From Eledone cirrhosa (Eukaryota): a stretch of DNA of 64,000 nt. Positions 1,337-59,900 of the stretch are shown here, piece after piece. The notes under the pieces are model-generated. The model was not told the origin of the DNA and ran no database searches. It worked only from the letters and a program-made list of their open reading frames with translations. Position 1 is the stretch's first letter, and each line of letters starts with the position of its first letter. A program made the translations under genes and the position numbers. The stretch spans positions 5,704,001 to 5,768,000 of the forward strand of contig OZ024750.1 in the NCBI GenBank assembly GCA_964016885.1, read 5' to 3'.

Positions 1337-1530
1337 AAGGGTGGTGGATTGGCAGTATCGGTAGAGGATCGGACGCCATGCTTTGACGCATAGAGTTACG
1401 GCCCTTGCCATTTTGAGTTCAAATCTCGCCGAGGTTAACTTTGCCTTTCATCCTTACGGGGTCGATAAAATAAAGTACCAGTAATGTACTGGGGTAATTG
1501 CTGGCCTTGTGCCAAAAGTAGAAACAATTA
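1337..1530 (+). mobile_element. tRNA-derived SINE family 1, full length (short form)
   Basis: A-box-like TGGCAGTATCGG, B-box-like GAGTTCAAATC, core GCCTTTCATCCTTACGGGGTCGATAAAATAAAGTACCAG. TSD AATTATGTC(G/A)AACATATGTA at 1317-1336 and 1526-1545. Confidence 0.92.
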
Positions 1531-1691
1531 TGTCAAACATATGTACTTTTCGTTGGCCTCCCAACAACTTTGACCGAAACCACTGCTTGCTTGTTGATCT
1601 ATCTCTTCATCAACTCATCTATCTCCCACTGTATCATATACAAAGAGCGTGAGAGAAGGAAAAAGTGAGCACTCTCATACCCTTATATATT

Positions 1692-3523: not shown

Positions 3524-4239
3524 GTGAGTGTCTGTGTGTGTGTGTGTGTGTATCATAGTATATTATCATACGATTAAAAAAAAACCATATAATAATACAA
3601 ATGAGTCTATTATTTATTGTACGGTGTTCAGTTCCTCGTACCAGAATGGAATTATCGAGAAAATATCGTTGTAGTTTATCATTCTTTAAGATTTATAGAA
3701 CTGAGCGGAATCTGTTAATATATTAAAAATAGAGTGATGGAGAATAAAACGAAAATATACCGAGTGAGATGAATCAGATGGGTTCCATTTGTGAACGTCC
3801 TTTTTGTCTAGAGCAGGGAAGCTTGCATATTTTATTCATCTGCTAGTCTATTTGAGCGCATTCCTCATCGAAGTTCAGCGTTCTTAGTTTATCCATAGCT
3901 AAGCTTTACTTCGCTATAGTTATTTATAGGTAAAGCGGACTGAGTTATTGAGAGATAGATTACTTTGAATGGAACACAACGAATTTCTATTAAAGAACAG
4001 GTAGGCCAGGACTCACTCGTCTTGACTATTTGCAAATCTGTTTGAAATTGATTGTACATTGTATATTGTAAATTATCCTAGTTGAATGTACATTCTATAG
4101 AGTTGGCTATAGAATTTAGAAATATATAGAAGAGATAATGGAATTGGATACAAATCGTAAATTATCTAGATCTGGCTACAAAATAATTTCTGACATTGCT
4201 ACAAGACAACAAATAGGTGAATCGACTCTTCCTAAATTA

Positions 4240-5594: not shown

Positions 5595-5601
5595 ATATAT
5601 A

Positions 5602-5787
5602 TAATTGTTTCTACTTTAGGCACAAGGCCACCAATTATCCAGTGCATTACTGGTACTTTATTTTATCGACCCCGTAAGGATGAAAGGCAAAGTCAACCTC
5701 GGCGGGATTTGAACTCAGATCGTAAAGGGACGTAACTATGCTGGAAAGCATGGCGTCCGACCCTCTACCGATACTGCCAATCCACCG
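5602..5787 (-). mobile_element. SINE family 1, full length
   Basis: Reverse complement of the consensus from TAATTGTTTCTAC to GCCAATCCACCG. Confidence 0.92.
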
Positions 5788-5810
5788 AATGATCGTCGAT
5801 TGACAAGATC

Positions 5811-8306: not shown

Positions 8307-8476
8307 ACACACACATATATATATATATATATTGCACCCTCCGCTCCTCAATCTCTTTGGCTCTATCTGACACTCCAACACTCCACTCCACCTTCTTTTC
8401 AGTCTTTCTACTTTATTTTTTCTATATTACATTATATATCTATATATCTATATATATTACATTATATATCTATATA

Positions 8477-8935
8477 TCTGAGTTCAAATCCCGCCGAGGT
8501 TAACTTTGCCTTTCATCCTTACGGGGTCGATAAAATAAAGTACCAGTAATGCACTGGGTAATTGCTGGCCTTGTGCCTAAAGTAGAAACAATTATATATC
8601 TATATATCTATATATATCTATATTACATTATATTGGCAGTATCGGTAGAGAGTCGGACGCCATGCTTTAACGCAGAGAGTTATGGCCCTTTCCATTCTGA
8701 GTTCAAATCCCGCCAAGGTTAACTTTGCCTTTCATCCTTATAAGGTCGATAAAATAAAGTACCAGTAATGTACTGAGTAATTGCTGGCCTTGTGCCAAAA
8801 GTAGAAACAATTATTATTCTGAGTTCAAATCCCGCCGAGGTTAACTTTGCCTTTCATCCTTATAAGGTCGATAAAATAAAGTACCAGGTAATGTACTGGG
8901 TAATTGCTGGCCTTGTGCCAAAAGTAGAAACAATT
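8477..8935 (+). mobile_element. three head-to-tail SINE family 1 copies (8477-8594, 8632-8813, 8817-8935)
   Basis: Three successive core plus tail units ending GTAGAAACAATT. The first and third start at TCTGAGTTCAAATC. Confidence 0.9.
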
Positions 8936-9287
8936 TATATATCTATATATCTATATATTTATGTATATTACATTATATATCTATATATCTATACATACCT
9001 ATATTATATATCTATATATCTATATATTTCTCTATTTATTTGTTGGCCTTTGTTTTCTTCATCGCTTCTTGTTCTTGCTAAGTAACATTTGTTTTTCAAT
9101 AACTCAAAATTTCTCCCGGAAAACGACTTGAGTGAAATATGAATTTATTGTCTTTATATTTTGTTTTCCTATTTTTCTTCTTAATCTAGTTTTACTTTAA
9201 CGTTTACTTCAAATTTTATTTTCATTTTATTCTCTTGCAATAGTCTTTGGCATATATAATTAATTTATATGATGTATGTATGCATGG

Positions 9288-9492: not shown

Positions 9493-9534
<42 letters not shown>

Positions 9535-9536
9535 AT

Positions 9537-9763
9537 CCAGGGTTCAATCGGGAGTAACCACAGTAAGTAAGGTACTCAATACATAGCAGAGTATAAATAT
9601 TTAATATAGAAATGGCTTCTACAGGACTGGAACTGTTTCATTCGAGAGAAATCCTGATGATTTCTTTCGAATGAAACATTTCTATATCTATAACTTTGGT
9701 GTTTACACTCTACTAATGTATTGAGTACATAACTTACTGTGGTTACCCCAGTTGAATCCAGGG
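9537..9763. mobile_element. foldback element, family B
   Basis: Imperfect terminal inverted repeats (GGTTCAATCGGGAGTAACCACAGTAAGTAAGGTACTCAATAC) and central palindrome GTTTCATTCGAGAGAAATC-CTGAT-GATTTCTTTCGAATGAAAC. Homologous to 20156 and 61125. Confidence 0.8.
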
Positions 9764-15409: not shown

Positions 15410-15552
15410 ACGTTTAAAATAAATCTAAGGTAAAGGACGAATTGTCAACAATATCTTTTGCAATTGCATTCTTTTTTCTATGTCCATACCTGCATTGTTT
15501 TGGCTTTATTACACATATTCAAACGTTTATATATATATATATATATATATAT

Positions 15553-15989
15553 TTAAAAGTTAAACAAGGTTCAATGAATAAATCGAAGAATGAGTTTTAC
15601 AATAGATTGGAAGCACTCAACAGTTTGGTTTTCCAGAGTTATTAATATTAATTCAAAATATTAACAAAATAGATATTCTTGTGATCAAGTATATTTTATT
15701 ATACATATTTCAGAGATACTGAGTTAACTTCAACAGTACGTCCTCATCAGATAAAATAAGATGATACATGACATACCCTGACATAGTAGATGGTTGAGAT
15801 TCAGTCGTGGTAGTGAGTAATATATGACAAAACTCAATATTTATATACCTTAATATTGAGAACATGAGAAATATATATAATACATACAATAGAGAGGGTG
15901 CGTGTGAGATAGCTTTAAAAATACTTGGCATCAATATAACTGTTAAATAATTTAAATTACTGAAGAAAGAGGAAAGAAAAGAAAGCATT

Positions 15990-16338: not shown

Positions 16339-16366
16339 ATATATATGTATATATATAAATACACAC

Positions 16367-16572
<206 letters not shown>

Positions 16573-16613
16573 CGAAACATAAGTCAATTGCATGAACTCA
16601 TAATCCCTTATTT

Positions 16614-16669
16614 ACTGCTATATATATTTCGATGATAGCCATTGAATGGCTATGACCTCATCAGGCAGT
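16614..16669 (-). ncRNA. type-I hammerhead ribozyme motif
   Basis: actgc CTGATGA ggtcatagccat-tca-atggctatcatc GAAA tatata TA gcagt: 5-bp helix I, helix II with 11 of 12 pairs, 2-bp helix III with palindromic AUAU loop. Confidence 0.88.
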
Positions 16670-16741
16670 TAGTCAGTTCTTAGAGTTGCCATCTCTGTGT
16701 TTATGGTGTTGTTGGTATCACACACACACACACACACGCAC

Positions 16742-16798
<57 letters not shown>

Positions 16799-20148: not shown

Positions 20149-20155
20149 CGTTTAT

Positions 20156-20490
20156 CCCGGTTTCAATCGGGGGGTAACCACAGTAAGTAAGGTACTCAAT
20201 ACAAAGCAGAGTATAAATATTTAATATAGAAAAGTTTCTACAGGACTAGAACTGTTTCATTCGGGAGATATCATCAGGAAGCTGGCTGTCTAAGTAATAT
20301 GGTGGTATATATATACTTTCTGGTGGTAGGAGAGGGTGGTGATTGGATGGGTGGAGGTCATTGTTTGATGGGTTTAATGAAAAGGGAATTCTTAAAAAAC
20401 TATATTTAGAATAACAAAGGCAGAACCCGAGTGAAACAGTTCTAGTCCTGTAGAAGCCTTGGATTTTAGTCTTCACATTTATTATTATTA
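20156..20490. mobile_element. TA-flanked element, family B
   Basis: First ~110 bp match 9537-9650. Internal 30-bp inverted repeat at 20236-20265 and 20426-20455. The end TTGGATTTTAGTCTTCA is shared with 3331-3347. Confidence 0.8.
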
Positions 20491-24515: not shown

Positions 24516-24870
24516 AGCAGAAGGGATATTAAATTGTTGGTAATTCAACAAATATAAATGTTTATAACTGATTCAGAGCACTCTACAGTTTTTCTAGTAT
24601 AATATACAATGATATTAAATAAATGGAAACTCTATTTATAAAACCATATTTATTCTATTATATACATTCCAAGGGTACCAAAATTTGACTATCCAAAGAT
24701 AACTTGAACCGTTAAGGTATATTCTCCTTGGTTATGTCGAAATTTATAAAACACACTTCGTATTTTATCTGATGATAGCGTATCAAAACTTTGGTACCCT
24801 TGAAATATATATAATATAACAAATATGGTTTTATAAATATAGTTGCCATTTATTTAATATCATTGTATAT
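24516..24870. mobile_element. TA-flanked HHR-bearing foldback element, family D
   Basis: Imperfect ~80-bp arms at 24602-24682 and 24790-24870. Homologous to 50456-50817 in the opposite orientation. Confidence 0.8.
24761..24821 (+). ncRNA. degenerate type-I hammerhead ribozyme motif
   Basis: tattttat CTGATGA tagcgtatcaaa-ac-tttggtaccctt GAAA tatata TA atataaca: core intact, with mismatches in helix I and at the first pair of helix II. Confidence 0.65.
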
Positions 24871-26204: not shown

Positions 26205-26606
26205 ACTTATAATGAAACCATTAAATATCATAGATGGAAGCCAACATCAATAATCTTCTGTAAAGCTCAAGTTAAGCGTGTTAGCAGCCATTATAAATAA
26301 GGAAAACATGAGAAATTGGAACCACAAAATTCTAGCCAACAACAGATAATAGAAGTACAATTGCTACTTTCATAATGTATACACAGTAGACGGTAACTAC
26401 GTTGAGAATCCTATATATACGGCTCCTAACAGATAAAACATTGTTTAAGCCGGCACCAGTTATTCAGTAGTTATTTCTAACTAATTCTAGAACATTTAAA
26501 TCACTGTAAAGAGGACTAGTTACAATACTGGCAATACTTAAGTTCAGCAGCTCCCATACTATTAAAAACAGACTCTTTGATACTAAACATGCTATACACA
26601 ATCAAA

Positions 26607-27155
26607 TAATTGTTTCTACTTTTGGCACAAGGCCAGCAATCAACCAGTACATTACTGGTACTTTATTTTATCGACCCCGTAGTTATTTTATCGACCCCAA
26701 AGTTAACCTCGGCGGGATTTGAACTCAGATCATAAAGGGCCGTAAGGTTATCAAACTTGAAATTCAAAGCAAAACATTGCATAAACACATTGAAATATTT
26801 TCGTGTGAAAACATCATCTTAAGTACATTAATTGTTTCTACTTTTGGCACAAGGCCCATAATTATCCCAGTGCATTACTGGTACTTTATTTTATCGACCC
26901 CGTAAGGATGAAAGGCAAAGTTAACCTCAGCGGGATTTGAACTCAGACCGTAAAGAGCCATAACTTTATGCTGCAAATAAATCCACTGCCAGACACAAGG
27001 CCAGCAATTACCCCAGTACATTACTGGTACCTTATTTTATCGACCCTGTAAGGATGAAAGGCAAAGTTAACCTCGGCGGGATTTGAACTCAGAATGGCAA
27101 GGGCCGTAACTCTATGCGTCAAAGCATGGTGTCCGACCCTCTACTGATACTGCCA
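26607..27155 (-). mobile_element. cluster of three SINE family 1 copies (26607-26745, 26829-26990, 26994-27155)
   Basis: Consensus matches. The first copy has an internal rearrangement and the second an internal deletion. Confidence 0.88.
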
Positions 27156-28452: not shown

Positions 28453-28566
28453 TTGTTTTGCAAGGTTTAATAAATTAACTATGGAGATATAAAAGATACA
28501 GAAGCGAAAAGCAACCAAACAGTGAGTGCGTTCTGTTATTATTTCTAGCAATATTATTACAACACT

Positions 28567-28750
28567 GTGGATTGGCAGTATCGGTAGAGGGTCGGACGCC
28601 ATGCTTTCCAGCATAGTTACGTCCCTTTACGATCTGAGTTCAAATCCCGCCGAGGTTGACTTTGCCTTTCATCCTTATGGGGTCGATAAAATAAAGTACC
28701 AGTAATGCACTGCGTAATTGCTGACCTTGTGCCTAAAGTAGAAACAATTA
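28567..28750 (+). mobile_element. SINE family 1, full length
   Basis: Consensus match with probable TSD ATTATTACA (28553-28561 and 28747-28755). Confidence 0.92.
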
Positions 28751-28802
28751 TTACAGCAATATGACCCACCCCAAGTATAACAATATACATATATATATAT
28801 AT

Positions 28803-40684: not shown

Positions 40685-40880
40685 ATAAGGGCGGTGGATT
40701 GGCAGTATCGGTAGAGGGCTGGACGCCATGCTTTGCAGCAGAGTTACGGCTCTTTATGATCTGAGTTCAAATCCCGCCGAGGTTAACTTTGCCTTTCATC
40801 CTTACGGGGTCGATAAAATAAAGTACCAGTAATGCACTGGGGTCGATTTTATCGACTTTCCCCTCCCCACAGTAGAAATC
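40685..40880 (+). mobile_element. SINE family 1 with alternative tail deletion
   Basis: Perfect 15-bp TSD ATTATGAGTACGACT (40670-40684 and 40881-40895). Confidence 0.93.
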
Positions 40881-44067: not shown

Positions 44068-44216
44068 AAATATAGCTACAAATCTCTTTTTATCTTGTTT
44101 ACTTTTCCCATATCCAAATAAAGATCCATCTGATGAGCAATATCAGACGTTTCTGTTAGAATCGTCTAACTTCGTGAAACCTTGGGTAATGGAAATAATT
44201 ATATTGTGTTGATTAT

Positions 44217-45449: not shown

Positions 45450-45721
45450 GCTCCGGCGTCGGCGTCGCAGGAAGCCCTCGAAGCGTTAGAGGGTTCAGAA
45501 TTGGTAGGGTACCTGAGTTGACCCTGGATGGTTATCCTCCCCCCCTTATTAGGAAATTTTCATTGTTGTATTTTTATTGTTATTTTGTTATTGTTATTTA
45601 TATTATTTAGACATTTTTCTGTAAAACCACTCACTGTCCCTGTCTTTTGTATTGTACCCTATATGTTGGTTCTTGTGGCCAATAAGGAAATTATTATTAT
45701 TATTATTATCATTATTATTAT
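45450..45721 (+). mobile_element. probable non-LTR retrotransposon 3' end
   Basis: GC-rich start, T-rich UTR-like stretch, ending GCCAATAAGGAA plus an (ATT)n tail. Confidence 0.45.
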
Positions 45722-45722
45722 T

Positions 45723-45928
45723 GGGCGGTGGATTGGCAGCATCAGTAGAGGGTCGGGTGCTATGCTTTGCAACACAGAGTTACGGTCTGAGTTCTAATCC
45801 CGCCGAGGTTCACTTTGCCTTTCATCGTTACGGGGTCGATAAAATAAAGTACCAGTAATGCACTGGGGTAATTGCTGGCCTTGTGCCCAAAGTAGAAACA
45901 TTATTATTATTATTATTATTATTATTAT
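45723..45928 (+). mobile_element. SINE family 1, full length, within (ATT)n
   Basis: Consensus match with a (TTA)n tail. Confidence 0.9.
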
Positions 45929-50110: not shown

Positions 50111-50236
50111 TTAGAAAGTGAACAACACAAAATATAACTACTCCATTACCAAAGGTTTCTGGATCCCAGACAATAATAATATACGTCTGGATCGGTCGTC
50201 AGACCGAGATGTTATCATTTATATATATATATATAT

Positions 50237-50461: not shown

Positions 50462-50814
50462 GATATTAATAAATGGAAACTATATTTATAAAACCATATT
50501 TATTTCATTATACATATTTCAGGGATACCAAATTAAATTATGGTATGCCTTCATCAGACAAAATACAATATATAACAGTTTTACAAATAGCTTTGACGTA
50601 CCCTATTAAAATGCAACCATTGTTTTTGGAAGTCATCCGGATAGTTTAATTTAATTTGGTATCCCTGAAATATGTATAATGAAATAAATATGGTTTTATA
50701 AATATAGTTTCCATTTATTAATATCGTATATCTACTCCAAATACTTGTCGAGTGCTTTATATCAGTTATAAAAATATTTACTTGTTGTATCCCAACAATT
50801 TTAAATAGAACTTT

Positions 50815-52194: not shown

Positions 52195-52427
52195 GTAGGA
52201 GGTGAGTTTTATTGTAGTACAATAAAGCAATGCAGATATCGGATAAGAAGCACTCTACAGTTTGATATGTTGATTTAAAACTGCACTATCAACAAGTGTT
52301 TTTTTAGCCTTCATATCATGTTCTCCTGTTTTATCTGATGAAAACGCAAATATTATTGTTTGATGATGTTTGTTTTTGAAATGCGCATAATAAAATATAT
52401 GGAACTCCTTTAACCATCTTTTGATCT

Positions 52428-56247: not shown

Positions 56248-56283
56248 TCTTAACGTTTCAGACGCTAGTCCTTCATCAGAAGA
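56248..56283 (-). ncRNA. minimal type-I hammerhead ribozyme motif
   Basis: tctt CTGATGA a ggac-tagc-gtct GAAA cg TT aaga: 4-bp helix I, 4-bp helix II, palindromic ACGU at helix III. Confidence 0.65.
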
Positions 56284-56451: not shown

Positions 56452-56468
56452 GCGCACACACATATATA

Positions 56469-56642
56469 TAATTGTTTCTACTTTTGGCACAAGGCCAGCA
56501 GTTATCCCAGTGTATTACTGGTACTTTATTTTATCGACCCTGTAAGGATGAAAGGCAAAGTTAACCTCGGCAGAATTTGAACTCAGAATGGCAAGGGCCG
56601 TAACTCTATGCGTCAAAGCATGGTGTCCGACCCTCTACCGAT
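56469..56642 (-). mobile_element. SINE family 1
   Basis: Consensus match lacking the extreme 5' end. Confidence 0.9.
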
Positions 56643-57382
56643 TATTCTATGTACTATACATTCACCTTTGATGAGTTGTAGTGCACCTGAGCACTGTACA
56701 CAACAATTTTCATTATTATTATTATTTCATTACTATTATAATAACACATTTTTCTTACCGTGTAAAAGGAATGAAAATAATAACAACAAGGCTAAAACAA
56801 AGCAATTTTCTCCCAGCCATTCTTAATACACAAACAGATTTTTTATTTTTATATAATGTTATATTATTAAAGTATTATTTATATATTTTATTAATGAATG
56901 GTCCTCGTTCCAGTGTTCAGAGGCCTGGGTACCTCACTATGTACATGTCTCTGTGAGTGTCTGGGGTTATGTGTCTGTGTATGGGGTCTGTGAGTGTGTA
57001 TGCATGTGGGCTTGTATAAATGTCTATGTACGTATGTGTGTGTAAGCATGTGTGCTTGTATACGCGTGCGTGTGATTGTATGCGTTTGTATGCGTGTGCC
57101 TGTGTGTGTGTGTGTGTCAGTGTGTGTCAGTGTGTGTGTGTGAGTGGGAGAGTATGGGTCAGCTATGCGTGTAGGTAATTGTCTGCGTATGTCTGTACAT
57201 GAAAGTGTAATTGAGAAACAAATAGAGAACAAGAGATAAATAGATATATAGATAGATAGGTAGATAGAAAGATAGATAGATAGATAGATAGATATAGAGA
57301 GAGAGAGATAGAGAGAGGTATATAGATAGATTGGTAGATAGATAGATATGATAGATAGATAGATAGAGAGAGAGAGAGATAG

Positions 57383-59455: not shown

Positions 59456-59488
59456 TCTCCCTTTCATTTATTACTCTCATTATCTCTT

Positions 59489-59675
59489 GTGGATTGGCAG
59501 TATCGGCAGAGAGTCGGACGCCATGTTTTGAAGCATAGAGTTACGTCCCTTTATGATCTGAGTTCAAATCCCGCCGAGGTTAACTTTGTCTTTCATCCTT
59601 ACGGGGTCGATAAAATAAAGTACCAGTAATGTACTGAGATAATTGCTGGCCTTGTGCCAAAAGTAGAAACAATTA
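59489..59675 (+). mobile_element. SINE family 1, full length
   Basis: Consensus match with 10-bp TSD ATTATCTCTT (59479-59488 and 59672-59681). Confidence 0.92.
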
Positions 59676-59900
59676 TCTCTTCTCGTCTCTCTTCAAACGT
59701 ATTTCTCAGTCTTATGGGTTTTTTTTCTTCTTCTTCTTCCTTCCTTCTTCCTTTCCTTCCTTCCTTCCTTCCTTCCTTCCTTTCTTCCTTCCTTCCTTCC
59801 TTCCTTCCATGTCATATTTTCCTTTTAACAGTTTTCGATTTTAAATGCTGTCCATTGAAACAGATTGTGTATGTTGTGCAATATTTTTTTTGTTTTGTGT

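What the first reader, a model, noticed from the sequence alone, without database searches (positions are those of the whole stretch)
16614..16669. Hammerhead with GC-rich helices unrelated in sequence to the others
Helix I is ACUGC/GCAGU, helix II has 11 of 12 pairs, and helix III is 2 bp with a palindromic AUAU loop. The different stems on an identical core are the best within-window evidence for structural selection. Predicted cleavage falls between plus-strand 16619 and 16618.
Basis: partly seen in the sequence, partly recalled or inferred. Interest (0 to 1): 0.75.

Follow-up and report, generated by a model that had tools for sequence, protein, structure and literature searches.

The report
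Hammerhead from a Penelope-like jumping gene
This is a predicted self-cutting RNA motif in a short leftover piece of a known kind of animal jumping gene, one of about three thousand near-identical copies in this genome; the copy itself is ordinary debris, but the copies' shared end points likely record how the element's RNA was copied.

Summary
The type I hammerhead on the minus strand (16669-16614) is real: complete core, helices as described, far above chance (5 such motifs in the window against a mean of 0.01 in shuffles). It is not a lone locus. It lies in a 152-bp, 5'-truncated end piece (pseudo-LTR) of a 4.15-kb Penelope-like retrotransposon of the Hydra clade (RT plus C-terminal GIY-YIG-type nuclease), with about 3,000 copies, inserted in (TA)n. 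Hydra-clade hammerheads are published (Craig 2021). Copies decay neutrally, core included, so selection on the fold acted in active ancestors, not here. The neighbouring hammerhead at 15750 belongs to a sister Hydra family, so 'different stems, same core' reflects divergence between families. Copies end 50 nt past the cut site; 34 of 100 start at one site 118 nt before it, sometimes with an extra G, likely a capped, uncut leader RNA. ORF-bearing copies never stop there (0 of 20), as expected of a circular or tandem template. Cleavage and expression are untested. This scan noted Hydra-clade hammerheads, the helix II mismatch and twin hairpins before, on other DNA of this genome.

The parts
16614..16669 (-). 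Type I hammerhead ribozyme motif (helix I 16669-16665 with 16618-16614; core 16664-16658; helix II 16657-16631; GAAA 16630-16627; helix III insert 16626-16621; UA 16620-16619)
16618..16619 (-). Predicted cleavage site, 3' of the UA at 16619
   Evidence: canonical hammerhead numbering; untested
16569..16720 (-). 152-bp 5'-truncated pseudo-LTR fragment of a Hydra-clade Penelope-like element: from 102 nt before to 50 nt after the cut site (two bases ambiguous at each end because of matches to the flanking repeats)
   Evidence: 96% identical to the pLTR of the full element L061, 97% to the nearest copies, no change in the 56-nt motif
16569..16569 (-). Fixed 3' end of the family, inferred start of reverse transcription
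   Evidence: 95 of 100 copies end at +48 to +58 by alignment, the spread being TA shared with the target
16360..16568 (.). (TA)43 then (TG)n microsatellite, downstream flank and target
16721..16792 (.). (CA)n(TA)n(TG)n microsatellite, upstream flank; with the downstream (TA)n(TG)n it resembles an expanded target duplication, which cannot be resolved
15692..15758 (-). Neighbouring type I hammerhead in the end piece of a sister Hydra-clade family (comparison, separate insertion)
   Evidence: L113: this hammerhead followed by a Hydra-type ORF start

Best explanation
The motif is the hammerhead of the end repeat of a Hydra-clade Penelope-like retrotransposon, left here as a 152-bp truncated, neutrally decaying copy in a TA repeat, and it likely serves the active element by cutting its RNA into unit lengths that would be closed into circles for reverse transcription. 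Shown: family, copy number, element anatomy, fixed ends, neutral decay. Inferred steps: (1) a promoter in the end repeat starts a capped RNA 118 nt before the cut site, with the ORF start 194 nt after it; (2) the RT-nuclease protein nicks (TA)n and starts copying inside the RNA, 50 nt (sometimes about 140 nt) past the cut site, just in front of a small bulged hairpin; (3) on the linear, capped, still uncut RNA this gives 168-bp solo pieces, the class to which this copy most likely belongs; (4) long and more-than-unit copies need a template without that 5' end, most simply a circle made by cutting at two hammerheads and ligation, which restores the motif. The monomer is predicted to be slow (2-bp helix III, a C.C mismatch, a competing pairing of the core with helix II); two motifs pairing through the palindromic helix III would be the active form.
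For: Walking upstream from copies gives a 1.4-kb 3' UTR and an ORF; L061 is pLTR-ORF-pLTR with hammerheads 4,148 bp apart and an ORF span of 2,602 nt. The ORF pieces show RMRWR, DKT, YRDD, a CxCx5C linker, no CCHH in the nuclease, CxxC and CxH near the end, the marks of the Hydra clade in PMC8557442 section 11. The RT piece folds at pLDDT 91 and matches RTs, TERT at ranks 2-3; 3 of 63 relatives hit Pfam GIY-YIG (best E 4.6e-5) and 1 RVT_1. 2,108 and 2,955 exact matches for two motif patterns, 0 for reversed controls. 95 of 100 copies end at +50 on (TA)n and 4 at about +140, three of these four in inverted pairs. 893 copies start at -118 against 768 that read through; 34 of 100 in a sample not chosen by 5' end; stops at two longer TA runs are 11 against 2,955 and 2 against 614. 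An extra G precedes that start in 11 of the first 100 listed against 2 A, as in full-length L1 insertions (PMC11702581 passage). 0 of 20 ORF-start copies that reach -118 stop there (p 1e-4). Short and long copies share alleles. Internal RT initiation on uncut RNA is shown for another PLE (PMC11167929 passages).
Against: No cleavage, expression or circle was observed. The active monomer fold is 3.8 kcal/mol above the minimum (-10.9 against -14.7), helix III pairs with probability 0.014, and even the dimer's active form is 2.8 kcal/mol above its minimum. 5' ends do not pile up at the cut site (11 against 2,955, same as control; 1 of 30 ORF-start copies is compatible with it), so cut linear RNA was rarely if ever a template. 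In the one PLE tested in vitro, hammerhead mutants insert as well as wild type (PMC11167929), and Naiad elements spread without a canonical hammerhead (PMC8557442). Read-through of tandem loci would explain the long copies without any cutting. None of the 14 long loci examined had an unbroken ORF. Pfam did not recognise 4 of 4 ORF pieces of this family. The extra-G count rests on 100 of 893 matches.
Confidence: 0.9

Rival explanations
1. Same element, but the hammerhead does no cutting that matters for mobility: long copies come from read-through of tandem loci, and the fold is kept as a structural or regulatory signal (for example a slow decapping brake between the cap and the start codon).
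For: All counted copies span the cut site or stop near it no more than by chance; weak predicted monomer fold with a family-wide decoy pairing; PMC11167929 found cleavage dispensable in vitro; the cut lies between the inferred start (-118) and the ATG (+194).
Against: All catalytic core positions are kept across families whose stems have diverged beyond recognition, which argues for selection on catalysis; L061 is longer than one unit plus 1.1 kb, needing a template with two junctions.
Confidence: 0.35
2. The 168-bp pieces are an independent non-autonomous element (a monomeric retrozyme or SINE) that copies itself from solo loci.
For: A discrete unit in about a third of copies; retrozymes are proposed to derive from PLE pLTRs (10.64898/2026.07.22.740005, parts 1-2 read).
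Against: No private variant separates 31 short from 43 long copies, and their divergence is alike (2.6% against 2.3%); solo pieces lack the downstream hairpin that lies beyond +50; no head-to-tail array of the short unit was seen among the loci fetched.
Confidence: 0.08
3. This particular copy was co-opted by the host and is under selection as a ribozyme.
For: Its 56-nt motif is unchanged while the rest of the fragment has a few substitutions.
Against: At about 2.5% divergence a quarter of copies keep 56 nt unchanged by chance; 2,108 exact 38-mers exist; flanks are microsatellites and other repeats; 0 of the 100 longest complex reading frames of the window passed a Pfam cut-off (100 of 151 scanned).
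Confidence: 0.02
4. Chance match to the hammerhead consensus in AT-rich DNA.
For: No Rfam match; folding z only -1.89.
Against: 5 motifs against a mean of 0.01 in shuffles; it sits where published Hydra elements have their hammerhead, within about 100-200 nt of the 3' end.
Confidence: 0.01

Closest known systems
Hydra clade of C-terminal EN+ Penelope-like elements, e.g. Hydra-1_Obim (Craig et al. 2021, PMC8557442; section 11, passages, supplement parts 1-2 of 59 and search hits seen)
   Same: RWK-like and DKT motifs, CxCx5C linker, no CCHH, C-terminal CxxC and CxH, (TA)n targets, type I hammerhead near the 3' end.
   Different: Unit of 4,148 bp against under 3 kb as a rule (long 3' UTR of about 1.4 kb, a low-complexity insert after the RT thumb); helix II of 12 pairs with a C.C mismatch against 3-7 pairs; helix III of 2 pairs with a palindromic loop against 3-4 pairs (counting A15.1-U16.1 as tabulated) in the 26 Hydra rows of File S2. 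The hammerhead listed for Hydra-1_Obim (2,507 bp) has a different sequence, so this is another family. Protein comparison with the paper's sequences was by eye only.
PLE pLTR hammerheads (Cervera and de la Pena 2014, PMC4209133; parts 1-2 of 4 read)
   Same: Type I topology, 5-bp helix I, long helix II, small palindromic helix III suited to a dimer, most copies solitary and truncated, many families per genome, proposed cut-and-circularise role.
   Different: No extra unpaired base at the start of helix II here; this family is not among the passages read.
Poseidon_Ac (PAc) in vitro mechanism (Frangieh et al. 2024, PMC11167929; passages read)
   Same: Copies end at two fixed sites downstream of the hammerhead, in AT-rich targets, and span the uncut site.
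   Different: Tail about 90 nt against 30-40; ORF starts 194 nt after the cut site rather than inside the ribozyme; different clade.
Metazoan non-LTR retrozymes (PMC7229834, passages; 10.64898/2026.07.22.740005, parts 1-2 of 5)
   Same: Type I hammerhead with weak helix III; likely dependent on PLE proteins.
   Different: This is a solitary truncated end piece of a coding element, not a tandem non-coding 150-450-nt unit.

Membership tests
Type I hammerhead ribozyme | Core CUGANGA, GAAA, UH in order | tested here: met
Type I hammerhead ribozyme | Helices I, II, III around the core, helix I open, G10.1-C11.1 closing pair | tested here: met
   5/5, 11/12 and 2 pairs; first helix II pair G-C; helix III unstable as a monomer
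Type I hammerhead ribozyme | Site-specific self-cleavage | not testable with these tools
   no assay; no RNA reads
Type I hammerhead ribozyme | Match to an Rfam hammerhead model | tested here: not met
   0 matches at E up to 10; not a defining feature of the class, the long helix II departs from the models
Penelope-like element (EN+) | Single ORF with telomerase-like RT | tested here: met
   YRDD; model pLDDT 91, Foldseek RT hits with TERT at ranks 2, 3, 5 and a DRT2 RT at rank 1; all copies examined are broken
Penelope-like element (EN+) | C-terminal GIY-YIG endonuclease | tested here: met
   VVY...YIG with downstream R, H, E, N-type motifs; Pfam GIY-YIG in 3 of 63 relatives, none in this family's own pieces
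Penelope-like element (EN+) | Partial tandem giving pLTR-ORF-pLTR | tested here: met
   L061
Penelope-like element (EN+) | Inverted 5'-truncated copies and a one-sided tail | tested here: met
   L023, L025, L062, L065, L199, L235, L261
Hydra clade | RWK motif and DKG changed to DKT | tested here: met
   RMRWR (K to R) and HADKT in L061
Hydra clade | CxCx5C linker, CCHH absent, CxxC and CxH near the conserved E and N | tested here: met
Hydra clade | Insertion in (TA)n and hammerhead near the 3' end | tested here: met
Hydra clade | Generally under 3 kb | tested here: not met
   4,148-bp unit; the paper gives this as a tendency
Hydra clade | Placement in the clade on an RT tree | not tested
   reference proteins were available only as paper text, cut short
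Non-LTR retrozyme | Tandem non-coding units of 150-450 nt each with a hammerhead | tested here: not met
   solitary fragment of a coding element

The most novel reading that the evidence does not exclude
The ends of this family's copies record two RNA templates: capped, uncut leader RNA (start 118 nt before the cut, cap copied as an extra G) gave about a thousand 168-bp solo hammerheads, while every long copy came from a hammerhead-cut, religated 4.1-kb circle. A deliberately slow hammerhead (conserved C.C mismatch, decoy pairing, dimer-only helix III) would then be the switch between mRNA and template, answering what Penelope hammerheads are for.
Probability: 0.3. Interest if true: 0.6.

Novelty: new member of a known kind. 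Interest (0 to 1): 0.3.

Why it matters
As a locus it matters little: it is one dead copy among thousands. As a family it offers a countable test case for an open question, the role of hammerheads in Penelope-like elements, stated as unclear in PMC8557442 and found dispensable in vitro in PMC11167929. The sharp contrast between solo pieces that stop at -118 and ORF-bearing copies that never do predicts a capped start site and a circular or tandem template, both directly testable in RNA.

Tried and rejected
Rfam scans gave no hammerhead. The repeat finder was swamped by microsatellites. No RNA holder listed; the contigs of 3 of the 5 listed runs were laid and show the same two boundaries (loose ends at 4097-4098 and 4268) but cannot show expression or cleavage. 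Pfam missed this family's ORF pieces and the profile found no solved structure by sequence (best E 0.06); the fold search settled the RT. A pile-up of 5' ends at the cut site was tested and not found: of 22 pattern hits 9 were expansions of the helix III loop, 2 internal deletions, 11 true starts, the same rate as the control site. A separate short subfamily was tested and not found. Host exons: 0 of 100 frames scanned (of 151) passed a Pfam cut-off; short exons could be missed, so gene context is open. A genome-wide count of the extra G was not made. Six paper searches listed no paper on this family or on a cap-derived G in Penelope-like copies; Repbase and Dfam were not searchable, and the supplement of PMC13282606 (octopus repeat library) was not opened and may hold this family. 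PMC11371274 held nothing relevant.

Full report
Observation. The minus strand at 16669-16614 holds a complete type I hammerhead: helix I 5 of 5 pairs, core CUGAUGA, helix II 11 of 12 pairs with a C.C mismatch at pair 4, GAAA, a 2-pair helix III with an AUAU loop, and UA, with the cut between + strand 16619 and 16618. The descriptor finds 5 such motifs in the window (16669, 15758, 50565, 52327, 44125) against a mean of 0.01 in 100 shuffles; looser or damaged ones lie at 24769, 50202 and 56279. The 56-mer is 39% G+C. Rfam has no match. ViennaRNA puts the active fold at -10.9 kcal/mol (-13.6 without helix III) against a minimum of -14.7 in which the core pairs with the 3' strand of helix II; two copies can form an 8-pair palindromic helix III, and the active dimer scores -34.4 against -37.2 for the dimer minimum and -29.4 for two monomers.

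What carries it. The own genome (3.0 Gb) gave 471 candidates; the 40 scored are 96-100% identical. Exact patterns give 2,108 and 2,955 matches with 0 for reversed controls. The 30 loci fetched share a 3' end on (TA)n and differ in 5' extent. Walking upstream gave a non-coding 3' UTR of about 1.4 kb and then an ORF end. Of 14 long stretches fetched, L061 shows pLTR-ORF-pLTR, hammerheads 4,148 bp apart, ATG 194 nt after the upstream cut site and an ORF span of 2,602 nt with frameshifts and stops; none of the 14 had an unbroken ORF. The window copy runs from -102 to +50 relative to the cut (16720-16569), 146 of 152 identical to L061.

Family. A 347-aa natural frame piece has 62 relatives at E up to 1e-10 among 2,897 candidates, 32-48% identical, unnamed. 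Its model (pLDDT 91) matches reverse transcriptases, TERT among the top three. Pfam misses this family's 4 pieces and hits GIY-YIG in 3 and RVT_1 in 1 of 63 aligned proteins. The motifs RMRWR, DKT, CxCx5C, a nuclease without CCHH, and C-terminal CxxC and CxH are those given for the Hydra clade in PMC8557442 section 11, whose supplement lists (TA)n targets and a hammerhead near the 3' end for its families, including Hydra-1_Obim with a different hammerhead and 2,507 bp. No tree was built. Inverted truncated arms and a one-sided tail of about 90 nt are present, as described for PLEs (PMC3846280 and PMC8557442 passages).

Selection. In 30 loci chosen by the upstream UTR (27 cover the motif), substitutions seen once were 4 of 326 in the core, 17 of 1,233 downstream and 140 of 9,026 upstream; counting all differences the whole motif was somewhat lower than the flanks (22 of 1,488 against 255 of 10,259, p 0.017), a gap that shrinks when shared polymorphic columns are left out. 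In 74 of 100 further copies (31 short, 43 long; 26 with other 5' ends left out) the CUGA.GA core had 12 of 441, helix II 52 of 1,850, downstream 51 of 2,423. I saw no compensatory change in the rows printed. Copies therefore decay about neutrally. The neighbour at 15750 is the end piece of a sister family (3,401 candidates; L113 continues into a Hydra-type ORF, 38-56% identical). The 50557 motif is another high-copy family (1,717 candidates) with a long AT-rich upstream region; a Hydra-type RT piece abuts one copy in inverted orientation (L094), which is suggestive only.

Ends. In the first 100 copies on contig C1 that carry the intact 3' half of the motif (a few are two arms of one insertion), 95 end at +48 to +58, 4 at +138 to +141 and 1 runs on; 34 start at -118 to -120, 46 further upstream, 20 downstream of it. 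Genome-wide, 893 start at -118 without the native preceding C against 768 that read through. Longer TA runs stop far fewer copies: 11 against 2,955 at the cut site and 2 against 614 at about -300 (these patterns demanded a longer TA run than the -118 pattern, so the contrast is somewhat overstated). An extra G precedes the -118 start in 11 of the first 100 listed, against 2 A and 87 T (p 7e-5 if G is 30% of non-T letters), mostly as a single G in an otherwise regular TA run; full-length L1 insertions carry such a G from the cap (PMC11702581, one passage). The site reads TCA with an AT-rich box about 25 nt upstream, and the Drosophila Penelope transcript starts in the pLTR (PMC2377424 passages). 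Of 30 copies chosen by the ORF start, 20 reach beyond -118 and none stops there, 5 start after the cut site, and 1 is compatible with a start at it. Each of the two 3' end points is followed, about 12 nt on, by a similar bulged hairpin, a lead from earlier notes (e1-8673755, e1-9518699).

Mechanism. Shown: the anatomy and counts above. From the literature: a PLE protein nicks AT-rich DNA and starts copying at two internal RNA sites, on uncut RNA, and cleavage is dispensable in vitro (PMC11167929 passages); PLE hammerheads are slow as monomers and were proposed to cut and circularise the RNA (PMC4209133 parts 1-2); animal type I hammerheads with weak helix III cut as dimers and give circles (PMC7229834 passages). 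Inferred: capped uncut leader RNA yields the 168-bp solo pieces; copies that include 3' UTR or ORF need the hammerhead followed by the start hairpin downstream of the ORF, found only in a circle or a tandem read-through RNA, which also explains why they ignore -118. I put the circle at about even odds with read-through. Since every copy spans the scissile bond, its template was uncut or religated. A translational role for the cut end (PMC13725137 passages) is possible but has no evidence here. No RNA data bear on any of this.

Verdict. A new family member of a known system; this copy is inert debris. Identity is well supported (0.9); the two-template reading is the part worth testing. Interest 0.3.

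Noticed in passing
window 15692-15758 (-), element about 15510-15960: End piece of a sister Hydra-clade family with at least 3,401 candidate copies; L113 shows its ORF start after the hammerhead.
   Followed up: partly
window 50462-50801 and 24531-24865: Two related hammerhead insertions (74% alike), each an inverted two-arm structure with a one-sided tail; at least 1,717 candidates for the first, many as back-to-back pairs.
   Followed up: partly
window 52327-52397 (+): Type I hammerhead whose helix II 3' strand is G/U-rich with many G-U pairs, possibly an A-to-G edited copy; family not traced.
   Followed up: no
window 44125-44193 (+) and 50140-50207 (-): Two related hammerheads (z 9) with a longer helix III insert and poorly paired helix II.
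   Followed up: no
window 56248-56283 (-): Minimal hammerhead without helix III in a repeat found in 20 of the fetched loci.
   Followed up: partly
window 9530-9760 and 20150-20300: Fold-back repeats with a CUGAUGA...GAAA half motif, a further high-copy family (22-24 fetched loci).
   Followed up: no
window 1340-1535, 5595-5790, 8476-8980, 26600-27155, 28550-28755, 40690-40870, 45720-45900, 56460-56645, 59488-59680: A very abundant 190-bp SINE-like repeat, at least ten copies in the window, some as tandem partial units.
   Followed up: no
L146, L150, L156, L157, L159-L162: Copies in which the helix III loop has expanded as a microsatellite to 7-8 TA units, which would lengthen helix III in a monomer.
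   Followed up: partly
L061 about 3560-3860 (3' UTR of the element): An internal direct repeat of about 150 bp (about 82% alike) in the long 3' UTR.
   Followed up: no
L062:5896-7272: A Thr/Arg/Pro-rich insert of about 120 aa between the RT thumb and the linker, absent from the relatives P0001-P0004.
   Followed up: no
L064:1883-4294 (-) and L066:1330-3021 (-): Long open frames of unrelated non-LTR retrotransposon RTs (804 and 564 aa) beside the Penelope-like copies.
   Followed up: no
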